From: a virus
IMG/VR virus record: IMGVR_UViG_3300005573_000069
Location: 37,034-101,033 of that record
Reading direction: 5' to 3' (one strand)
DNA: 64,000 nt
Both the position numbers and the translations under genes were made by a program. This document shows positions 1 through 9,412 of the stretch, piece by piece. The notes under the pieces were generated by a model. The model had not been told where the DNA came from and did no database searches. It was given only the letters and a program-made list of their open reading frames with translations. Within the stretch, counting starts at the first letter, position 1; each line of letters opens with the position of its first letter.

Positions 1-1068
1 CTTCGCATAGTCTCGTGCAATTGTCTGGCGAAAATGTTCTACTTTAAGTTTATTGTCTAGCATCAAAAATAGATGTTTACTGTATTCGGGGCAATTTGCC
101 ATTACATACAATGCAAACTCCTTTCGATTTTTATCTTTGATTTCTTCATATATTTTTCTTACCTTTTCTATCTCTAACCGTAAAACTGAATTTAATTGAG
201 ATGTCTTATCTTCAATCTCAATTCTAAATTCTTCGGGTAACTTTGTTATCAAATCGGCAATCTTTTCATCCTTCCATGCCTCTGCGATAGCTTTATCCGA
301 CAACCCACACACAATTTTATGCACCTTTTGGTATTCGGCACTCTTTACTTTAATCCTAAATCCATCGCTCCATCTTAAAACAAACCCTTCTTCTTGACTG
401 TCCAAGGTTACACATTTCTTTACTATTTCATCAATATTAGCTTCAACTTTTTCCGTTACAGGCATCTCCATATCACGCGCCAATTCACACAATTCCTCAT
501 ACGAGAAATCGTATCCGTTGTTACTATCTCGCGCACCAATCAAAATGAGATCAACAAAATTATAGTTGACTACAACCTTTGTTAGGGGATGTATGATCTC
601 AACCAAAAGTGTTATATCCGCAGGAATATTTTTGTTCCAATATTTTTCGTTCCAAATTTCTTGAGCGATTTTAGCCTGCTCAGACTCGAAACTGCCCCGA
701 GTTGCCCAAAATATTTTATTATCCAGGCGATAACTTATGCCTAAACTTCCGTCATATTTGACTGTTATTTCGGGCTGTTCATCGGGAATTTCGCCCTTGT
801 ATTCTCCAAGATTGAAGAATTTTGCGAACGGTAGAGAAATTATCCGCCTTGTTACCTTATCAAAAATTAATCCTCTGCAATTTAGTGTCGCCTCATTCCA
901 TAGCCTTTCAAACGAAGCCTTTAGCGTATAATTAGCAATACAAATTTTTGGATTATCGGGATGTTTCCTTTCAGTAATATATCCTTCTGCTAACATCTTG
1001 TTGTAATTATCTATAGTAATCCCGAGATCATCTAACAACACTTCGTATTCCTCCTGAAACATTATCAT
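1..1068 (-). CDS. RNA ligase, T4 Rnl1-like (3' end runs off window)
   Basis: Not in ORF track; translated manually. ATG at 1068 overlaps the stop of 1065..1367 and the frame is open to base 1. Motifs PFAKFFNLGE, TVKYDGSLG (motif I), LVEII, EEGFVLRW and RIKVKS. Confidence 0.85.
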   Translation of the reverse strand, partial: MIMFQEEYEVLLDDLGITIDNYNKMLAEGYITERKHPDNPKICIANYTLKASFERLWNEATLNCRGLIFDKVTRRIISLPFAKFFNLGEYKGEIPDEQPEITVKYDGSLGISYRLDNKIFWATRGSFESEQAKIAQEIWNEKYWNKNIPADITLLVEIIHPLTKVVVNYNFVDLILIGARDSNNGYDFSYEELCELARDMEMPVTEKVEANIDEIVKKCVTLDSQEEGFVLRWSDGFRIKVKSAEYQKVHKIVCGLSDKAIAEAWKDEKIADLITKLPEEFRIEIEDKTSQLNSVLRLEIEKVRKIYEEIKDKNRKEFALYVMANCPEYSKHLFLMLDNKLKVEHFRQTIARDYAK

Positions 1069-2975: not shown

Positions 2976-3080
2976 TCAAAAATTAACCACTTCTTTTTCT
3001 TCATTATCGTCTGCACCAATTTCAATCTTTTCTACTTCCAAAACTTTGCCGTCCTTGTCTTCCAAAATCACTACAATCAT
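2976..3080 (-). CDS. small acidic peptide (34 aa)
   Basis: Manual translation MIVVILEDKDGKVLEVEKIEIGADDNEEKEVVNF, AGGAGG RBS. Confidence 0.5.
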   Translation of the reverse strand: MIVVILEDKDGKVLEVEKIEIGADDNEEKEVVNF

Positions 3081-3092
3081 TTTTATTACCTC

Positions 3093-4367
3093 CTAAAAAT
3101 CAGCCTCATTTTTGTCGTCTCTTAGCCGCATAAAAACGGGAAACCTCAATGACAGCGCGTCATTTTTACTGTTCTTACTTTCCTCAAAATATTTAATGGT
3201 TGCAATTTTACCCATGTATTTGTCTTGATTATCCCATATTTCTTCGCGATCTTCGTCCAAAAAGCCCGTACCAACCTTAACGGTATTGCCTTTATACGCT
3301 ACCATTAAGGCTCCCAACATCCCTTCATACTTTCCTGTTCCCTCTTCAAAGCCTATAATCCTCAAGTCAGCCTCTTTAAATGATTTGACTTTAAGTAATT
3401 CCTTAGTACGCTTAAACTCATACTTTCCGTCCGCAGTATTAACCATAATCCCTTCTACTCCATTAGTGTTAGCCCATTTGAGGTAATCCGCTATCTTACT
3501 TTTGTCATTACCCACATACAACATGCGCACTTCCTTAAGGAATTTCAGTTTATTGTCAAACGCCACAAAGACATCATGTATTAACCTCTTGCGCTCAATA
3601 CACGGATCATACGCCTTCTTGTTTTGGAATTGACTCAAAGGTAAGCAATCAAAAACATGAAATTCAAGTCCCGTTTTGACACCATCCCTTTGAGTAATCT
3701 TAACAGTTTCTCGATACAAGTCCTTACTATGAAGCGATTTTCCGTTAATGGCAATCAATTCACCGTCATAAACATAATTGTTCAAAAGATGTTCCGCTTC
3801 GTTCTCAATCTCGATCATTCCTTCAAACTGCTTCCCTTGACGGCTTATGATTGAGATATTATTATTCTCCTTAATCAATATAGCCCTTACACCATCTAGC
3901 TTCGGCGTGAGTATAAATTCATCTCTTACATGATCTTCATAGTCGAAATAACTATATGCCAACATAACCTCAAAACTAGGAATCAGTTTGGGCCACACCT
4001 TATTTACCGTCTTATAGTCACAACCAATTCTCAAATCCTTGAGAATAATACGCCTGTACCAATCTTTATATTCTTCCGGCTGACTATCTACAAAATTATT
4101 AACCAATTCCTTTTCGGCAAAGGAACCGGTATTGTGTTGTCTTAGATAGTCCAGCAGTTGAAATACGTTTTGAAATTTTGCTTCTTTAGAGGAAAAATAT
4201 TCGTCGAAAGTTTTGGAACCAATCCCATAGACATAGTAAGGATTGAGTGCATACAGCAACGTTTGCTTCAGAGATTCGTTATCCCTGTTACGTTGCAGAA
4301 TTGCAATTTTGTCAGATGTACTAGAAGTACTTTCGATTTTTTCAAGAATTTCAAAGACATCTTGCAT
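3093..4367 (-). CDS. ATP-dependent DNA ligase
   Basis: TPKLDGVR (motif I), YDGEL, FHVFD, EGIMV, KVK, OB-fold VKVGTGF and LRFPVF. Confidence 0.95.
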   Translation of the reverse strand: MQDVFEILEKIESTSSTSDKIAILQRNRDNESLKQTLLYALNPYYVYGIGSKTFDEYFSSKEAKFQNVFQLLDYLRQHNTGSFAEKELVNNFVDSQPEEYKDWYRRIILKDLRIGCDYKTVNKVWPKLIPSFEVMLAYSYFDYEDHVRDEFILTPKLDGVRAILIKENNNISIISRQGKQFEGMIEIENEAEHLLNNYVYDGELIAINGKSLHSKDLYRETVKITQRDGVKTGLEFHVFDCLPLSQFQNKKAYDPCIERKRLIHDVFVAFDNKLKFLKEVRMLYVGNDKSKIADYLKWANTNGVEGIMVNTADGKYEFKRTKELLKVKSFKEADLRIIGFEEGTGKYEGMLGALMVAYKGNTVKVGTGFLDEDREEIWDNQDKYMGKIATIKYFEESKNSKNDALSLRFPVFMRLRDDKNEADF

Positions 4368-4389
4368 GTTAATCTCCCTTTCAATTTTT

Positions 4390-4421
4390 TATGTACAGGC
4401 CGGTTTTTCACCCGGTCGGCC
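4390..4421 (-). promoter_or_regulatory. hairpin-TACATA junction element (before DNA ligase)
   Basis: Imperfect GGCC..GGCC stem, then TACATAA, then GGGAG RBS on minus strand. Confidence 0.7.
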
Positions 4422-4520
4422 AGCCGGAAATAAGTTATGTCTTTTCTATTGTCCAAACGATCTTAGATGTTTCAAGTAACCAGGCACTTGTTTATCGAGT
4501 TCCAACAACATCTCCTCTAG

Positions 4521-4937
4521 TCATCCATCAGCAATATCCGCAGCAAACTCCATACACCCATCAACGTCCATGCCAATCTGAGTCCAAATATATTCACCAT
4601 CGTCTTCACTTTTATCTACAAAACTTAAACCGTAGTTTATTGAATATCCGTGTTTTCTACCATCCGGAAGTGCTATGCAATCTATTCCCGGAAACTCATA
4701 GCCTGGTAATATATCCTTTATCTCCTTGACAAGCTGATTAGTAGCTGCAAATAGCCTATGATATGTGTCGCGTGATCCTTTCGTGATCTGTTCTTTCTTT
4801 GAAAGTACAGGATAACCTTCGTGTTCAAGGTACTTATAGGCACATTTCAGCAAGGGACGTATCTTAGCACTCCCCTACTTTAATACCGCAATTGCTGCCA
4901 TTATCTCTTTTGTTGTATATTCTTTCATTTTAACCAT
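4521..4937 (-). pseudogene. hypothetical gene with in-frame TAG at 4875-4877
   Basis: RBS and ATG at 4937/4928 are in frame with track ORF 4521..4853, separated by one amber codon. Confidence 0.55.
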
Positions 4938-4980
4938 CCCTTCCTTTCCCCTGCCATCCTTCTTTGTCGGCTACGGGCTA

Positions 4981-5009
4981 TATGTATGAGCCAAGGCTAA
5001 AGCCCTGGC
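4981..5009 (-). promoter_or_regulatory. hairpin-TACATA junction element
   Basis: GCCAGGGC-TTTA-GCCTTGGC stem, then CATACATA. Confidence 0.65.
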
Positions 5010-5016
5010 AACCGGG

Positions 5017-5775
5017 TTATATATGCCGGGTAGTAATCTTTGGGATGCCAAGACCCAAGGCAATAGCCTCATGCGGTTCCACTTCGCGGGGTCTTCCAGC
5101 CTCGCCCAACCGCATGAGGATTGAACCTCTGCGTTTGACCCTCCATTGTCGCCAAACAGCAGCGGAGGGATCGCCAGTAACCAGAGAAATGTCTCCATTT
5201 CCCTGGAGATCTACATGAACAGCTTGACAATTTTTAACAGAGTAAATGTCTTGACGTGCCACCAAAACAAACATTCCCGGAGCTGGAACCAACCGGTATA
5301 TGTCTATCCCGGCAGCAGAGCCTGCTTCCTCAAAAGTATAATCTAGCCAAACATGGCCAAAATACGACAATTCTATACCTGGTTTACTGACAGATGAAGG
5401 CCCCACAAGAGCCAACCCCCATCTGCCATTTTGCGATACTTCTCGGAAGAGAGTTATTGTTTCCTCCTTTACCGCCGCTTTTGTTGGCAACGGCACAACT
5501 GTTACTTTGTAGGTGACAGGCTCAGCTGCGATCCTCCGAAGAGTCTCCAAATCGAGTTCTTTTCCCCGGAGCTCGGCACTAAGATTGAGAGGGATTTCTG
5601 TAACACTAGCAGCTAGTGCCGCCAATGAAAGTGGAAGTATACCGATAACATGTTTCCCGCGCACATCCTGCGGGGTGGCGTGCGGAATGACACGCACGCC
5701 TTCTTCGATTAGCCCACGCTCCTGAAGGAGCGCGACCAAAGCCGGGTGACGGGTTACGACAATGGTATTTTCCAT
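5017..5775 (-). CDS. Csx16/Crn1-like (TIGR02620-type) domain fused to unknown C-terminal domain
   Basis: N-terminal VVTRHPAL...PHAT...VIGILPLSLAA...LRGKELDLE pattern matches Csx16 (Cas_VVA1548). Confidence 0.65.
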   Translation of the reverse strand: MENTIVVTRHPALVALLQERGLIEEGVRVIPHATPQDVRGKHVIGILPLSLAALAASVTEIPLNLSAELRGKELDLETLRRIAAEPVTYKVTVVPLPTKAAVKEETITLFREVSQNGRWGLALVGPSSVSKPGIELSYFGHVWLDYTFEEAGSAAGIDIYRLVPAPGMFVLVARQDIYSVKNCQAVHVDLQGNGDISLVTGDPSAAVWRQWRVKRRGSILMRLGEAGRPREVEPHEAIALGLGIPKITTRHI

Positions 5776-5817
5776 TTGTATTCTCCTTTCTCGTACCTTT
5801 TACTTATAAGAGAATTA

Positions 5818-6312
5818 CTAATCAAAAACCACTCGTATTTCTGCCGGTCGTCCATTTCTATATCGCACATACACCGGATAAACACCGTCTCCATCACCCG
5901 TGCGACATACTGCCCATCTTGCAGATGAATTAGCATTCTGCGGATCGAACTTAAAAATATCCGCATTCGTTCTATCTACTTTTTCAAAAACATGGGACAG
6001 AGTACTGTTATCGTATACAATTGTTGTCATAACTCCTGTCTGGTGTAATTTCGCCTCCCATAAATTTACCTCTTCACCGGGCACCATAACTGACCAAGTT
6101 TCGGGAATCGTATCAGGAGTCAATGTAGCTGTATAACCTGCACTCTTAATAATTTTCAACGCTTGAGGAGCAGATGCCCCCCAAAAACGAATCATACCTG
6201 TAGGGGAACATTCCTTTTCTTTTTTCCAATCATTTTCAAAAAACCACGGATCTCCTAATACTAGTGTACCTGTTTCAATCGAAACGTGACCAATTAGCTC
6301 AAAGCCTTTCAT
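5818..6312 (-). CDS. hypothetical protein, DUF4241-like
   Basis: TGTLVLGDP...GDGDGVYPVY; start moved to 6312 after RBS. Confidence 0.6.
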   Translation of the reverse strand: MKGFELIGHVSIETGTLVLGDPWFFENDWKKEKECSPTGMIRFWGASAPQALKIIKSAGYTATLTPDTIPETWSVMVPGEEVNLWEAKLHQTGVMTTIVYDNSTLSHVFEKVDRTNADIFKFDPQNANSSARWAVCRTGDGDGVYPVYVRYRNGRPAEIRVVFD

Positions 6313-6341
6313 ATCTACCTCAATACTCCTTTTCATTTTAT

Positions 6342-6366
6342 TATGTACAGGCACCTATCAGGTGCC
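6342..6366 (-). promoter_or_regulatory. hairpin-TACATA junction element
   Basis: GGCACCT-GAT-AGGTGCC, then TGTACATAA and AAGGAG. Confidence 0.75.
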
Positions 6367-6705
6367 CAATCCCTCTTTTTTGACATCCAGCATCTGTTCT
6401 AGGATATTTGCCTTCTCATTAATTTCCGCCTTATTATTTCTTATATTTTCGCATATTACCTCCAGCAACCGGCTATTACAAACATCGTGTGCGAATTCCT
6501 TTGCAACCTGAGAATTAGCTCCTACCCACACATCGTCATAATTGCGGATACTACCTTGCGAACTGACGTAATATCCGTATGGCAATTGGCATCTTTCCGG
6601 CAGACAATCTGCCATCAGTTTGGAAAGACATCTTACATTTTCCCACAGACGTTCTTCCGCGATCTTATACTCTTCACAAACCTTCTTCAATTCCTCCAAC
6701 ATCAT
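6358..6705 (-). CDS. hypothetical protein
   Basis: Start likely 6705 (MMLEEL) after AAGGTGGAG. Confidence 0.65.
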   Translation of the reverse strand: MMLEELKKVCEEYKIAEERLWENVRCLSKLMADCLPERCQLPYGYYVSSQGSIRNYDDVWVGANSQVAKEFAHDVCNSRLLEVICENIRNNKAEINEKANILEQMLDVKKEGLGT

Positions 6706-6724
6706 AACTCCACCTTTCTCTAAA

Positions 6725-7033
6725 CTAAGATTGTTCCCAATCTGGCACATAGCCATATTTCTCCCTAGCTTTCTTAACAGCATCTTCAAATTTTTGACGA
6801 TTTTCCGCAAGAAGTATTTTAGCTTGTTCAATCACACTTTTCTGAGTACGCCCAAATATATTTAAGTGTACTCCAGTTGACATTTCGGTAATAATCCACG
6901 GCTTCTCTTTAAGATAATTTACTTTTCTCAAAAAGAATCTATATTTATCATCAATTACCACTTCTTTACCTGGAACGCGCTCATAAAACGTTCCACCATT
7001 CCCATCACTTGCATGAATATAATACTCTTTCAT
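6725..7033 (-). CDS. hypothetical protein
   Basis: Start likely 7033 (MKEYYIH) after AGGAGG. Confidence 0.65.
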   Translation of the reverse strand: MKEYYIHASDGNGGTFYERVPGKEVVIDDKYRFFLRKVNYLKEKPWIITEMSTGVHLNIFGRTQKSVIEQAKILLAENRQKFEDAVKKAREKYGYVPDWEQS

Positions 7034-7049
7034 CTTTAAAAATCCTCCT

Positions 7050-7310
7050 TTAACCTGCTTTTCTCTGAGAAATATATGCCGCGAGCTTAACCGCCTCATC
7101 AAAATTGGTCGCTTTTCCCATCGCTAACTGAAAATAACACATGATGTCAAAAGACTTTATAATTTTTTGTTCTAACTGGGCAGCGAACTCTTTTTTGAGT
7201 TCGCTATAAAGATGACTTTTCTTAACACCTTTAAGACAAAGATCCTGTAGTTTTTCCCTAATAATTTCGTGCAATTTAGGATCATAATGTCTATTCGTCA
7301 TGACGATCAC
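7050..7310 (-). CDS. hypothetical protein
   Basis: Track ORF, coupled to upstream gene. Confidence 0.6.
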   Translation of the reverse strand: MIVMTNRHYDPKLHEIIREKLQDLCLKGVKKSHLYSELKKEFAAQLEQKIIKSFDIMCYFQLAMGKATNFDEAVKLAAYISQRKAG

Positions 7311-7531
7311 TCCTCAAAGATATTAGCGTCAACAAATTCCTGGAATCCTGCCGGTTCATTCGATGAAAGCAGCAACCAATCAGGAACATCGGCATCCGGA
7401 AATTCACCAAAATCTACTAAACCACCGTTTTTCATCCATATACCATCTTCGGCCACGTATGATGTCAACAACGCCCTATTCTCACGAGTATCTGCTAGAC
7501 CACAATAATCCAAAAATTCGCGAGCTGTCAT
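7307..7531 (-). CDS. hypothetical acidic protein
   Basis: Track ORF with AAGGAG RBS. Confidence 0.65.
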   Translation of the reverse strand: MTAREFLDYCGLADTRENRALLTSYVAEDGIWMKNGGLVDFGEFPDADVPDWLLLSSNEPAGFQEFVDANIFEE

Positions 7532-7602
7532 CTTAACTCTTCTCCTTATCTTGGTTTATTTATGCCCGTTTTTGAATGGAACGGGCAAACCATTGTTTAA
7601 CT

Positions 7603-7830
7603 CTATCTTTCCCATTCGGCTAGAAAGTTATCGCCATCCTGATACACCCTGAAACCATCTGGATTTTCAGCCATATAAGCCTCAAAATCCTCTTCACCGT
7701 CAAACCATGCTTGCCAAAGTTTTTGGCTAACGTCCAGCACATCATAATTACGCGCCGGATCACCACCAAAACGAGATACTGACACAAATCTCTGGAGACC
7801 ATCGAAACTCTTAATAGTGGAAATCCTCAC
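7603..7830 (-). CDS. hypothetical protein
   Basis: Track ORF with AAGGAGG RBS. Confidence 0.6.
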   Translation of the reverse strand: MRISTIKSFDGLQRFVSVSRFGGDPARNYDVLDVSQKLWQAWFDGEEDFEAYMAENPDGFRVYQDGDNFLAEWER

Positions 7831-7842
7831 TGCTATCCCTCC

Positions 7843-8154
7843 TTATGCTTCTTCAGCATATTCGGGAAAAAGCTCCAGTATCTTCTCGGAACCCCCATGG
7901 GACTCCAAGAATCGAATCGCCGTAGTTTCGTCAATCGGTTCTATTGCTTCCGAACCACCCATACCATTTCCTACAGGCACGGCCATATCAGTCATGGCCC
8001 CACCTACATGATGAATAAAGTATGCTCCTTTTTTGGTACGGTACAATGTCTTTTCCCGATACTTAAAATCACTTACATACCGCCCATTAAACCAGTCATG
8101 AATCAATTCCGCCGTTTCCGTGTCATACAGCTTCCCCTCAATCACCTGACGCAC
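7843..8154 (-). CDS. hypothetical phage early protein
   Basis: GKLYDTETA...ETLYRTKKGAYF pattern; AGGAGG RBS. Confidence 0.75.
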   Translation of the reverse strand: MRQVIEGKLYDTETAELIHDWFNGRYVSDFKYREKTLYRTKKGAYFIHHVGGAMTDMAVPVGNGMGGSEAIEPIDETTAIRFLESHGGSEKILELFPEYAEEA

Positions 8155-8287
8155 CGCGCGTCACCCTCCTTGCCCAACACGGGCTATTTATTTTCGGAGC
8201 ACCTTGCTCCTGGAAGTGGGCTGTTGACGGCCAACCCACTAGAACCGATATATATCACGGTGAACGAATTCTCTTCACAAAAATCAC

Positions 8288-9412
8288 CTATCCCTCTGTA
8301 TATATTTGTTCAATCTCTAAAACAGGCACAATTTCCTTTTCTTGTACTGGCCCAGTAATAACCGAATTAATATTCTCCTTAAAGTCTGCAAGCATACATT
8401 CTATGCGCTTGCTAACATTGTGCTGACTTGCAGTTTTATCTTCACAAGCCAATTTATAGGGGGTGTTACTTCCACGCCCCGTATTGGTGCGCAGGAAATT
8501 TGCACACCAGGCGCCAAATTTACTGGCGCCAATTTCGTCTTCCATTGCAATTTTTGCTATATATGCTACAATAGGGATATGCAATTTGCGTAACTCCTTG
8601 ATCTTTCCACTTTGGTGTACGGTAGGTGCATTTTCGAATGCCTTAGAAAGGTATTCATACACGTTAATGACTGAATTAACTTCTCTCCGGAAACCTACTA
8701 CATCGGTTTCCTTCAACTGCTTTATATCCTCTATAAAACTCTCCATTTCCTTTTTGCCAAGCCCTACCTTACCATCATAGTAAGACAAAGCCAAGCTTTG
8801 CAATATAATTTCCTCGTCTATAAAACCGTTCTTCATTGTATCAGACAGATTAGCATATTTTGTAAAGAACGGCATATTGCCAATTTGCCTAATTTCGTCA
8901 AGCATGAAATCACAATTAATACGCAGCAATTCCATGCGAGACAATGCCGTCCCACGATTCAACCGATAGAACAGGTTCCGAACCTGCTCATCGGTTAGCG
9001 ATTTATACACCCGGAAATTGAACGGATGTGACCCAATTTCGCTCTGAATCACTTGTGGCAATTCCGAGAATTTCTTGCCACAAATGTCCTTCATAGAAAC
9101 TTCGTACTCTTTCAACCATTTTTCATCAATGTCGTCAAACTCCTCTGGCGTCGCAAATTCATCCCGCAAAAACGAACATACCGTAAGTATACGCTGTTTA
9201 CCATCCAACATGTATAATATGTCAGACGATTCAACACCGTACAAATACGGTATGTCATAATTCTCCAAAATGGAAGCAATGAGCATCTGTTTCTGCTCCA
9301 GCTTCCAGACGCTATTCCTTTGAATTCTCAAGTCTAAATTAATCTTACCTTCTTTGACGCCCTTAGCAATTGAGCGCAAGCTCAGTTGCTTCGTCATCGG
9401 CTTGTCAATCAC
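8288..9412 (-). CDS. DUF262 (ParB/Srx-fold, GmrSD N-terminal-like) domain protein
   Basis: IQRNSVW...LIASIL...IP...LDGKQR...F.RLNRG signature. Confidence 0.85.
   Translation of the reverse strand: MIDKPMTKQLSLRSIAKGVKEGKINLDLRIQRNSVWKLEQKQMLIASILENYDIPYLYGVESSDILYMLDGKQRILTVCSFLRDEFATPEEFDDIDEKWLKEYEVSMKDICGKKFSELPQVIQSEIGSHPFNFRVYKSLTDEQVRNLFYRLNRGTALSRMELLRINCDFMLDEIRQIGNMPFFTKYANLSDTMKNGFIDEEIILQSLALSYYDGKVGLGKKEMESFIEDIKQLKETDVVGFRREVNSVINVYEYLSKAFENAPTVHQSGKIKELRKLHIPIVAYIAKIAMEDEIGASKFGAWCANFLRTNTGRGSNTPYKLACEDKTASQHNVSKRIECMLADFKENINSVITGPVQEKEIVPVLEIEQIYTEG

What the first reader, a model, noticed from the sequence alone, without database searches (positions are those of the whole stretch)
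5017..5775. Phage-borne Csx16/Crn1-like ring-nuclease domain fused to a 160-aa unknown domain
Seen: the N-terminal ~90 aa follow the Csx16 (Cas_VVA1548) pattern TRH..A....G....H......VIG.LP..LAA......L.LP.ELRGKEL. Known: Csx16-type proteins are type III CRISPR accessory proteins linked to cyclic-oligoadenylate degradation, and viral ring nucleases such as AcrIII-1 act as anti-CRISPRs. Inference: an anti-type-III protein from a family distinct from AcrIII-1, with an extra domain of unknown role.
Basis: partly seen in the sequence, partly recalled or inferred. Interest (0 to 1): 0.68.

Follow-up and report, generated by a model that had tools for sequence, protein, structure and literature searches.

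The report
Phage Csx16 ring nuclease, beta-domain fusion
A 110-kb phage carries a copy of Csx16, an enzyme family that destroys the alarm molecule of type III CRISPR immunity, fused to an unnamed all-beta domain that was found here only in virus or metagenome sequences and that recurs fused or adjacent to three different ring-nuclease families, so the gene is probably an anti-CRISPR and its second half a new counter-defence module.

Summary
Window 5017-5775, on the minus strand, is a 252-aa ORF. Residues 6-91 match Pfam PF09652 (Csx16) at E 2e-16, which is 60 bits against a cut-off of 25. The record is a 109,955-bp virus contig with terminal repeats.

Csx16 is a published cA4-specific ring nuclease and has already been reported in two phage genomes (PMC12409355). 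The anti-type-III reading is therefore plausible, but that part is not new.

The new part is the C-terminal ~140 aa.
- It belongs to an unnamed family of about 80 protein clusters.
- It has no Pfam or PHROG match.
- It was not found in 185,579 species genomes or in 50,697 cultured-phage records.
- It recurs fused or adjacent to three ring-nuclease families: Csx16, Crn4 and Csx20/MJ1673. It also occurs next to, or fused to, small DNA-binding-type domains.

Both halves are under purifying selection (dN/dS about 0.1). The same phage also encodes a stand-alone Crn4b homologue at 18766-19095.

The function of the beta domain is inferred, not shown. This scan reported the same architecture earlier on other DNA (e1-3268414). 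I reached it independently here.

The parts
5017..5775 (-). Whole gene: 252-aa Csx16-beta fusion protein (P0001), stop codon included
   Evidence: ORF list and translation. Full-length homologues at 41-76% identity: P0002-5 and P0009. GC is 50.6% against 39% for the window and about 40% for both flanks.
5783..5788 (-). Ribosome-binding site AAGGAG, 7 nt upstream of the ATG
   Evidence: Read directly from the sequence. The upstream gene's stop codon is at 5818-5820.
5494..5772 (-). Csx16 (PF09652) ring-nuclease domain, residues 2-94
5455..5493 (-). Variable Pro/Ala/Lys-rich linker, residues 95-107
   Evidence: Low-confidence segment between the domains. Higher dN/dS of 0.34-0.43. Poorly conserved in the alignment.
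5029..5454 (-). Unnamed all-beta domain, residues 108-249. Motifs: S-x-N-G-R-W-G (res 114-120), L-Q (190-191), K-R-R-x-S (214-218)
18766..19095 (-). Companion gene in the same early array: stand-alone Crn4b-like ring nuclease (P0140, 109 aa)
   Evidence: PADLOC Unk_01 E 7.9e-30. Solved Crn4b 9r7b E 1.4e-12 and Crn4a 9sma E 5.6e-12, with the N-L-T-P-H motif and the C-terminal V-R-D...G-C motif aligned. It is the only such match in the 110-kb genome.

Best explanation
This is a phage early gene for a two-module inhibitor of type III CRISPR signalling.

Module 1 (residues 2-94) is a Csx16-family ring nuclease. By homology it dimerises, binds cyclic tetra-adenylate (cA4) made by Cas10, and cuts it to linear products. 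cA4-activated effectors such as Csx1, Csm6 and Can2 are then never switched on. This mechanism is shown for cellular Csx16 and inferred here.

Module 2 (residues 108-249) is an all-beta domain, found here only in virus or metagenome sequences, with its own independent function in the same pathway. My preferred mechanism is that it binds a nucleotide signal: cOA of another ring size, the linear products, or a related messenger. It would act as a sponge or as a second nuclease, broadening or speeding the shut-down. The precedent is phages that fuse two anti-signalling domains in one protein.

What is shown: domain identities, the recurrent association with ring nucleases, absence from the cellular genomes searched, and purifying selection.
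What is inferred: every activity, and the target of module 2.

Rough odds: module 1 acts as an anti-type-III ring nuclease, about 0.75. Module 2 works in the cOA pathway, about 0.65. Module 2 binds or cleaves a nucleotide signal, about 0.35.
For: Csx16 membership rests. Csx16 is an experimentally confirmed cA4-specific ring nuclease, and phage copies have been reported (PMC12409355).

The gene is in a virus record. It has a strong ribosome-binding site. It sits in a minus-strand array of small early genes that also holds a Crn4b homologue.

The beta domain is linked to three ring-nuclease families.
- Csx16: fused in 7 protein clusters, P0001-5, P0009 and P0054.
- Crn4/Unk_01: fused in both orders, P0141 (= L004:7590-8441) and P0137 as Crn4-beta, and P0138 as beta-Crn4. 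A Crn4 gene lies immediately upstream of the beta gene in L003 and L007.
- Csx20/MJ1673: fused in P0057 (= L023), with precomputed PF27247 and PADLOC Csx20 E 3e-4. An adjacent gene occurs in L008 and L009. These match NF040559 at E 5.6e-4 and 9.7e-7, and the Atlas gives structural TM 0.68/0.88 to PF27247 clusters.

The beta domain also has a life of its own.
- About 60 stand-alone clusters exist.
- There are fusions to an RHH-like segment, seen only by eye.
- In L005 a lambda-repressor-like HTH gene lies just upstream. This resembles an acr-aca arrangement.
- In the tandem paralogues of L019 the Csx16 T-R-H motif is degenerate (T-S-N and K-H-H), while the beta motifs persist.

Support for a counter-defence rather than cellular role:
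- No beta domain was found in two scans of the 185,579 GTDB species genomes.
- Both domains have dN/dS of about 0.1.
- The invariant polar and aromatic residues (S, N, R, W, Q, K, R) are of the kinds that commonly bind nucleotides.
- Fusion of two anti-signalling domains in one phage protein has a precedent in Tad2-Acb4 (PMC12265669).
Against: No biochemical activity, host or target system is known.

The protein misses the strict NCBIfam TIGR02620 cut-off, so it is a divergent Csx16.

The beta domain has no recognisable fold relative, so its nucleotide-binding role is pure inference. I could not map the conserved residues on the model.

The largest stand-alone subfamily (P0086-like, L005) has no ring nuclease within a 17-kb contig.

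All four fusion partners would be obligate dimers if the unverified RHH-like segment is a true RHH. The fusions might therefore only supply dimerisation.

The Csx20 assignments are weak at the sequence level and fall below curated cut-offs.
Confidence: 0.6

Rival explanations
1. The Csx16 domain is the whole anti-CRISPR. The beta domain is only a scaffold for dimerisation, stability or localisation and has no anti-defence activity of its own.
For: All fusion partners are families that work as homodimers, if the unverified RHH-like segment is a true RHH (Csx16, Crn4 and Csx20 per PMC12409355 and PMC12830947). Stand-alone beta proteins carry a Pro-rich linker plus a short amphipathic helix. The Csx16- and RHH-fused clade lacks this tail, as if the fusion replaced an oligomerisation tail. 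No ligand-binding fold was recognised.
Against: Most family members are stand-alone proteins. Some of them sit behind their own HTH gene with no ring nuclease nearby. The beta motifs stay conserved where the Csx16 motif decays. Seven invariant polar or aromatic residues are unusual for a mere scaffold. The Crn4-beta fusion P0141 keeps the tail.
Confidence: 0.2
2. The beta domain is a protein-protein inhibitor: a classical stoichiometric Acr that blocks Cas10/Csm-Cmr or a cOA-activated effector. It is paired with a ring nuclease as a belt-and-braces design.
For: The arrangements with an RHH-like fusion (unverified) and an upstream HTH gene resemble acr-aca units. The domain was found only in virus or metagenome sequences. 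It is small and has no matched fold, as is typical of Acrs. The weak BFVD match is to an uncharacterised Sulfolobus rudivirus protein, E 4e-4 and TM 0.41.
Against: Conservation is concentrated in Ser/Asn/Arg/Trp/Lys/Arg motifs shared across very divergent members at 22-35% identity. Surface-mimic Acrs, which track one host protein, rarely show this pattern. No target is known.
Confidence: 0.15
3. The protein is not an anti-CRISPR. It senses or clears cOA, or acts on 2',3'-cyclic-phosphate RNA ends, for the phage's own regulation or RNA repair.
For: The RHH-like-beta fusions look like ligand-responsive transcription factors. A T4 Rnl1-type RNA ligase and an ATP-dependent DNA ligase lie within 5 kb on the same strand.
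Against: There is no synteny between the fusion gene and the ligases in related contigs. The partner families are all cOA ring nucleases. No Cas10 or effector was noticed in the parts of the window I annotated, but I did not search for them specifically.
Confidence: 0.05

Closest known systems
Csx16 (Pfam PF09652 Cas_VVA1548; TIGR02620), the CRISPR-associated cA4-specific ring nuclease (Hoikkala et al. 2025, PMC12409355)
   Different: The gene is encoded by a phage, not in a CRISPR locus. It falls below the TIGR02620 equivalog cut-off. It carries a 140-aa C-terminal domain. At 252 aa it exceeds the 250-aa length filter that paper used for ring nucleases, so such fusions could have been screened out there.
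AcrIII-1 / Crn2 (DUF1874, PF08960), the viral cA4 ring nuclease anti-CRISPR
Crn4 (Unk_01; PDB 9r7b, 9sma, 9qs9), a broad-spectrum ring nuclease with phage and plasmid orthologues (PMC12830947)
   Same: The same phage has a stand-alone Crn4b homologue at 18766-19095. In other viruses the beta domain is fused or adjacent to Crn4 instead of Csx16.
   Different: Crn4 is unrelated in sequence and fold to both halves of the protein under study. The published phage Crn4 extension is an N-terminal 60-80 aa segment, not this 140-aa beta domain.
Fused phage anti-signalling proteins (Tad2-Acb4, and PF21825 fusions; PMC12265669)
   Same: Same design logic. Two independent modules against immune nucleotide signals sit in one polypeptide, and new modules can be discovered through their fusion to known ones.
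   Different: Those are sponges against Thoeris and CBASS signals. Here one module is an enzyme against type III CRISPR cOA and the other is uncharacterised.

Membership tests
Csx16 (PF09652 / TIGR02620) | Match to the Pfam family model above its gathering score | tested here: met
   60.3 bits against a cut-off of 25, E 2.1e-16, profile positions 2-90 of 91. The six-frame search of the genome gives 62.5 bits.
Csx16 (PF09652 / TIGR02620) | Match to the NCBIfam TIGR02620 equivalog-domain model above its curated cut-off | tested here: not met
   24.5 bits against a cut-off of 46.35, E 2.4e-05. This makes it a divergent member, not the narrow equivalog.
Csx16 (PF09652 / TIGR02620) | Family-conserved residues clustered at the predicted cOA site | tested here: met
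   T8, R9, H10, L13, H32, V43, G45, L47, P48, L51 and G71 are at least 90% conserved in 49 homologues, and all are present in this protein. Which of them are catalytic is not stated in the text I could read.
Csx16 (PF09652 / TIGR02620) | Small derived-Rossmann (CARF-like) fold: a five-strand sheet flanked by helices | tested here: met
   AF2 gives pLDDT 97-98 over residues 1-90, with strands at 4-7, 28-30, 42-45, 57-60 and 87-89 and intervening helices. Best PDB matches are AFV3-109 and the Crn2 domain, as published for Csx16.
Csx16 (PF09652 / TIGR02620) | cA4-specific ring-nuclease activity | not testable with these tools
   Needs HPLC or TLC assays with cA3, cA4 and cA6.
Csx16 (PF09652 / TIGR02620) | Location in or beside a type III CRISPR-Cas locus | tested here: not met
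   The gene lies in a phage genome between ligase, DUF4241-like and GmrSD_N genes. The paper also reports phage copies outside CRISPR loci.
AcrIII-1 / Crn2 (PF08960, DUF1874) | Sequence match to the family model | tested here: not met
   PF08960 finds no match anywhere in the 110-kb phage genome. The Pfam scan of the protein lists only PF09652.
AcrIII-1 / Crn2 (PF08960, DUF1874) | Shared fold | tested here: inconclusive
Crn1 (CARF7 ring nuclease) | Sequence or fold match to Crn1/CARF | tested here: inconclusive
Unnamed beta-domain family (S-x-N-G-R-W-G ... K-R-R-S-S) | Profile match and conserved motifs | tested here: met
   The profile of 80 sequences gives E 3.2e-38 on residues 108-249. S114, N116, G117, R118, W119, G120, Q191, K214 and R216 are present. 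Y213 of the consensus is Val in this clade.
Anti-CRISPR (functional class, type III) | Encoded by a mobile element and inhibits a CRISPR-Cas system | not testable with these tools
   Virus encoding is shown. Inhibition needs an interference assay.

The most novel reading that the evidence does not exclude
The all-beta domain, found here only in virus or metagenome sequences, is a new class of inhibitor of type III CRISPR (cOA) signalling. It would be a sponge or ring nuclease with a fold unmatched in the PDB. Phages would deploy it alone behind a small repressor gene, or welded to whichever ring nuclease they carry (Csx16, Crn4 or Csx20). That would make it the ninth extrinsic family acting on cOA.
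Probability: 0.35. Interest if true: 0.8.

Novelty: new variant of a known kind. Interest (0 to 1): 0.62.

Why it matters
Ring nucleases are the main way viruses and cells switch off type III CRISPR signalling, and eight extrinsic families are currently counted (PMC13148439).

The Csx16 half adds only another phage example. The beta half is different. It is a conserved domain, found here only in virus or metagenome sequences, that evolution has joined repeatedly and in both orders to three ring-nuclease families. This is the kind of guilt-by-fusion signal that recently uncovered new phage sponges.

If the beta domain binds or cleaves a signal, it extends the catalogue of anti-CRISPR mechanisms and may add a new nucleotide-binding fold. 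It also flags a blind spot: length filters of 250 aa or less in ring-nuclease surveys would miss these fusions.

Tried and rejected
1. Plus-strand reading of 5017-5775: full of stops. The gene is on the minus strand.

2. FG-GAP or integrin-like kinship of the beta domain. The long hits P0055, P0060 and P0063 are FG-GAP/RTX repeat proteins. They match only the short D-L-Q-G-N-G-D segment, as many short stretches per protein (8, 8 and 4). I rejected this as motif-level chance.

3. DNMT3B PWWP hit of the beta profile. E is 0.04 for single domains and 1e-6 only for a duplicated construct. It covers only the C-terminal part of the profile (positions 106-159), which includes the tail of the stand-alone proteins. 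Rejected.

4. Fold searches of the beta model.
- Foldseek against the PDB: best E 0.01, with TM below 0.3.
- BFVD: one weak hit to a Sulfolobus rudivirus protein, TM 0.41.
- ESM Atlas: nothing at 0.9 or above.
No fold assignment can be made. This does not prove that the fold is new.

5. The first AF2 run on the whole protein left the C-terminal half below pLDDT 50 because only 9 sequences covered it. It was solved by building an 80-sequence alignment.

6. Searches that found nothing:
- Megablast of 3000-9000 and tblastn of the protein against 50,697 phage records.
- Two scans of genome contigs for the beta domain.
- A search for longer fusion forms, which found only P0137.

7. The 98-aa ORF downstream of the beta gene in L006 starts with an F-I-S-R-H motif. 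hhalign found no similarity to Csx16 or MJ1673. Left unexplained.

8. The RHH identity of the N-terminus of P0006-8 could not be verified.

Contexts came from the search for related loci instead. The portal is only about 32% identical to portals of large Bacillota siphoviruses.

Full report
**1. The observation**

Coordinates 5017-5775 correspond exactly to one open reading frame on the minus strand. It runs from the ATG at 5775 to the TAA at 5019-5017 and encodes 252 aa. The plus strand is closed by stops. A canonical AAGGAG sits 7 nt upstream at 5783-5788, 30 nt after the stop of the preceding gene.

Domain matches:
- Pfam PF09652 (Cas_VVA1548 = Csx16): residues 6-91, nearly end to end, E 2.1e-16, 60.3 bits against a gathering score of 25.
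- Three PADLOC Csx16 models agree, with best E 2.2e-16.
- The stricter NCBIfam TIGR02620 model is matched only below its cut-off, 24.5 bits against 46.35.

The window is bases 37034-101033 of a 109,955-bp IMG/VR virus record with direct terminal repeats. Its plus-strand half encodes terminase, portal, a 1838-aa tape-measure protein and tail fibres.

**2. The N-terminal domain**

In an alignment of 49 homologues, T8, R9, H10, L13, H32, V43, G45, L47, P48, L51 and G71 are at least 90% conserved. All are present in this protein.

AlphaFold2 models residues 1-90 at pLDDT 97-98 as a five-strand sheet with flanking helices. Against 48,161 PDB representatives the two best matches are:

The domain is thus a divergent but intact-looking Csx16. 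It is not Crn1. At the sequence level it is not AcrIII-1 either, because PF08960 finds nothing in the phage.

**3. The C-terminal domain**

Residues 108-249 have no Pfam or PHROG match. A full phmmer scan of 1.84 billion representatives with this half found 22 proteins. Most were stand-alone proteins of about 160 aa. A profile search then brought the family to 79 clusters.

The family shares these motifs:
- S-x-N-G-R-W-G (residues 114-120 here)
- L-Q (190-191)
- G-Y-K-R-R-S-S (R-V-K-R-R-G-S here, 212-218)
- L-L-A-x-G-L near the end

With the 80-sequence alignment, AlphaFold2 gives a confident all-beta model: pLDDT 90, pTM 0.82, 11 strands.

No convincing structural relative was found.
- Foldseek against the PDB: best E 0.01, TM below 0.3.
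- BFVD: one weak match to an uncharacterised Sulfolobus rudivirus protein, E 4e-4, TM 0.41.
- ESM Atlas: nothing usable.

Apparent hits to FG-GAP repeat proteins and to the DNMT3B PWWP domain are motif-level or tail-level chance.

**4. What the domain keeps company with**

I built local HMMs for the beta domain, Csx16, Crn4 and the MJ1673-like domain. I scanned all fetched proteins and all ORFs of 8 viral and 12 metagenome loci.

*a. Csx16-beta fusions.* There are seven protein clusters: P0001-5, P0009 and P0054. L019 carries a tandem pair.

*b. Crn4 links.*
- Crn4-beta fusions: P0141 (= L004:7590-8441) and P0137.
- The reverse order, beta-Crn4: P0138.
- A Crn4 gene immediately upstream of the beta gene in L003 and L007.
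- The Crn4 identity is firm. PADLOC Unk_01 gives E down to 8e-30. Unk01 was renamed Crn4 in PMC12830947.

*c. Csx20/MJ1673 links.*
- Fusion: P0057 (= L023), with precomputed PF27247 and PADLOC Csx20 E 3e-4.
- Adjacent genes: just upstream in L008 and abutting downstream in L009.
- These three sequences are clearly homologous to each other.
- They match NCBIfam CAS_Csx20 only weakly, E 5.6e-4 and 9.7e-7, below the cut-off.
- The Atlas model of the L008 protein superposes on PF27247 'MJ1673' clusters at TM 0.68/0.88.

*d. DNA-binding-type partners.*
- P0006-8 (L012-14, L017) replace Csx16 with a roughly 50-aa segment that looks like a ribbon-helix-helix. I judged this by eye only, and it is unverified.
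- In L005 a lambda-repressor-like HTH ORF overlaps the start of the beta gene.

*e. No partner.* The largest stand-alone subfamily (P0086-like) has no ring nuclease on its 17-kb contig.

**5. Distribution and selection**

- The beta domain was not found in two scans of the 185,579 GTDB species genomes.
- It was not found in 50,697 cultured-phage records.
- It occurs in nine IMG/VR contigs, counting this window's own record, and in metagenome contigs.
- Neighbouring genes are not syntenic between carriers, as expected for a mobile accessory gene.
- The gene is a compositional outlier in its phage: 50.6% GC against 39%.
- Against three homologues, dN/dS is 0.09-0.15 for the Csx16 part, 0.11-0.15 for the beta part and 0.34-0.43 for the linker. 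dS is near saturation, so the values are approximate.
- In the paralogues P0005 and P0054 the Csx16 T-R-H motif has become T-S-N and K-H-H, while the beta motifs persist. This suggests that the beta half is not a mere appendage of the enzyme.

**6. The phage's second ring nuclease**

Window 18766-19095 (minus strand) encodes a 109-aa protein that matches:
- PADLOC Unk_01 at E 7.9e-30;
- the solved Crn4b (9r7b) at E 1.4e-12 and Crn4a (9sma) at E 5.6e-12, with the N-L-T-P-H and V-R-D...G-C motifs aligned.

It is the only such gene in the genome, and the beta domain occurs only once. The phage therefore carries two unrelated ring nucleases 13 kb apart in the same early array.

**7. Interpretation**

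The best-supported reading is a bipartite anti-type-III protein. The Csx16 domain degrades cA4. The beta domain contributes a second, independent function in the same pathway.

I favour nucleotide-signal binding or cleavage, for four reasons:
- the invariant Ser/Asn/Arg/Trp/Gln/Lys/Arg set;
- the repeated pairing with ring nucleases;
- the pairing with DNA-binding domains, which fits either an acr-aca unit or a ligand-responsive regulator;
- the precedent of fused anti-signalling modules in phages (PMC12265669).

The rivals are a pure scaffold or dimerisation role, a stoichiometric protein inhibitor, and a function outside CRISPR counter-defence. The scaffold rival gains some support because all the partner families work as dimers (assuming the unverified RHH-like segment is a true RHH), and because the fused clade lacks the Pro-rich amphipathic tail of the stand-alone proteins. 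None of these can be settled without experiments.

**8. Novelty**

Phage-borne Csx16 and viral ring nucleases as anti-CRISPRs are published. The fusion, and the beta family's pattern of association, were not found in the papers I could search. The published survey excluded candidates longer than 250 aa.

Within this scan the same architecture was reported before on other DNA (e1-3268414). I saw that note only after reaching the same conclusion. Another note on this window had guessed that the gene at 18766-19095 is Crn4 (e1-5349013), and I confirmed this.

**9. Limits**

- The host is unknown.
- No coordinates of the models were available for mapping conserved residues.

Noticed in passing
window 18766-19095 (-): Stand-alone Crn4b-like ring nuclease of 109 aa, starting M-E-I-I-N-L-T-P-H. 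It matches PADLOC Unk_01 at E 7.9e-30 and solved Crn4b 9r7b at E 1.4e-12. The phage therefore carries two unrelated ring nucleases.
   Followed up: yes
window 5017-5775: The gene is a GC island: 50.6% against about 40% in both flanks and 39% for the window. GC3 is 44% against 30-39% in neighbouring genes. This suggests fairly recent acquisition.
   Followed up: partly
L019:41-715 and L019:841-1578: Two Csx16-beta genes lie in tandem on one metagenome contig. Their Csx16 T-R-H motif is degenerate (T-S-N and K-H-H) while the beta-domain motifs are kept. They may be binding-only or neofunctionalised copies.
   Followed up: partly
L006:6862-7158 (+): A 98-aa ORF lies directly downstream of a stand-alone beta gene and begins with an F-I-S-R-H-T-P-T-P-E-Q motif reminiscent of Csx16/Csx20 N-termini. 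hhalign found no significant similarity. It might be a further minimal ring-nuclease-like family.
   Followed up: partly
A4 alignment; e.g. P0086, P0056, P0141: Stand-alone beta proteins end in a Pro-rich linker plus a short Ala/Leu amphipathic helix (for example ...A-L-A-K-A-L-G-R-D). The Csx16- and RHH-fused clade lacks this tail. It may be a docking or oligomerisation peptide.
   Followed up: no
L012-L014, L017 (P0006-8); L005:7786-7998: The same beta domain is fused to a roughly 50-aa RHH-like segment (judged by eye, unverified). In L005 it is preceded by a lambda-repressor-like HTH ORF (PDB match E 1e-3). This resembles an acr-aca arrangement.
   Followed up: partly
window 1-1068 (-) and 3093-4367 (-): A T4 Rnl1-type RNA ligase (PF09511, E 1e-15) and an ATP-dependent DNA ligase lie in the same early array. 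An RNA-repair enzyme beside ring nucleases could counter RNA-cleaving defence effectors. No kinase/phosphatase was identified in the three unannotated ORFs between them.
   Followed up: no
window 8288-9412 (-): A phage-encoded GmrSD_N/DUF262-domain protein (PF03235, E 7e-15; phrog_2598) sits in the early region. It has the N-terminal domain of a modification-dependent restriction enzyme, with no C-terminal nuclease domain detected.
   Followed up: no
P0013, P0014, P0023, P0049: These metagenome proteins have two Csx16 domains in tandem (288-305 aa). They are presumably single-chain pseudo-dimers of the ring nuclease.
   Followed up: no
window 4987-5006 (-): A GC-rich stem-loop (GCCAGGGC-TTTA-GCCTTGGC) lies right after the stop codon and is followed by TACATA. 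This is the junction element that another note on this window describes. It has no T-run, so it is not a canonical intrinsic terminator.
   Followed up: no
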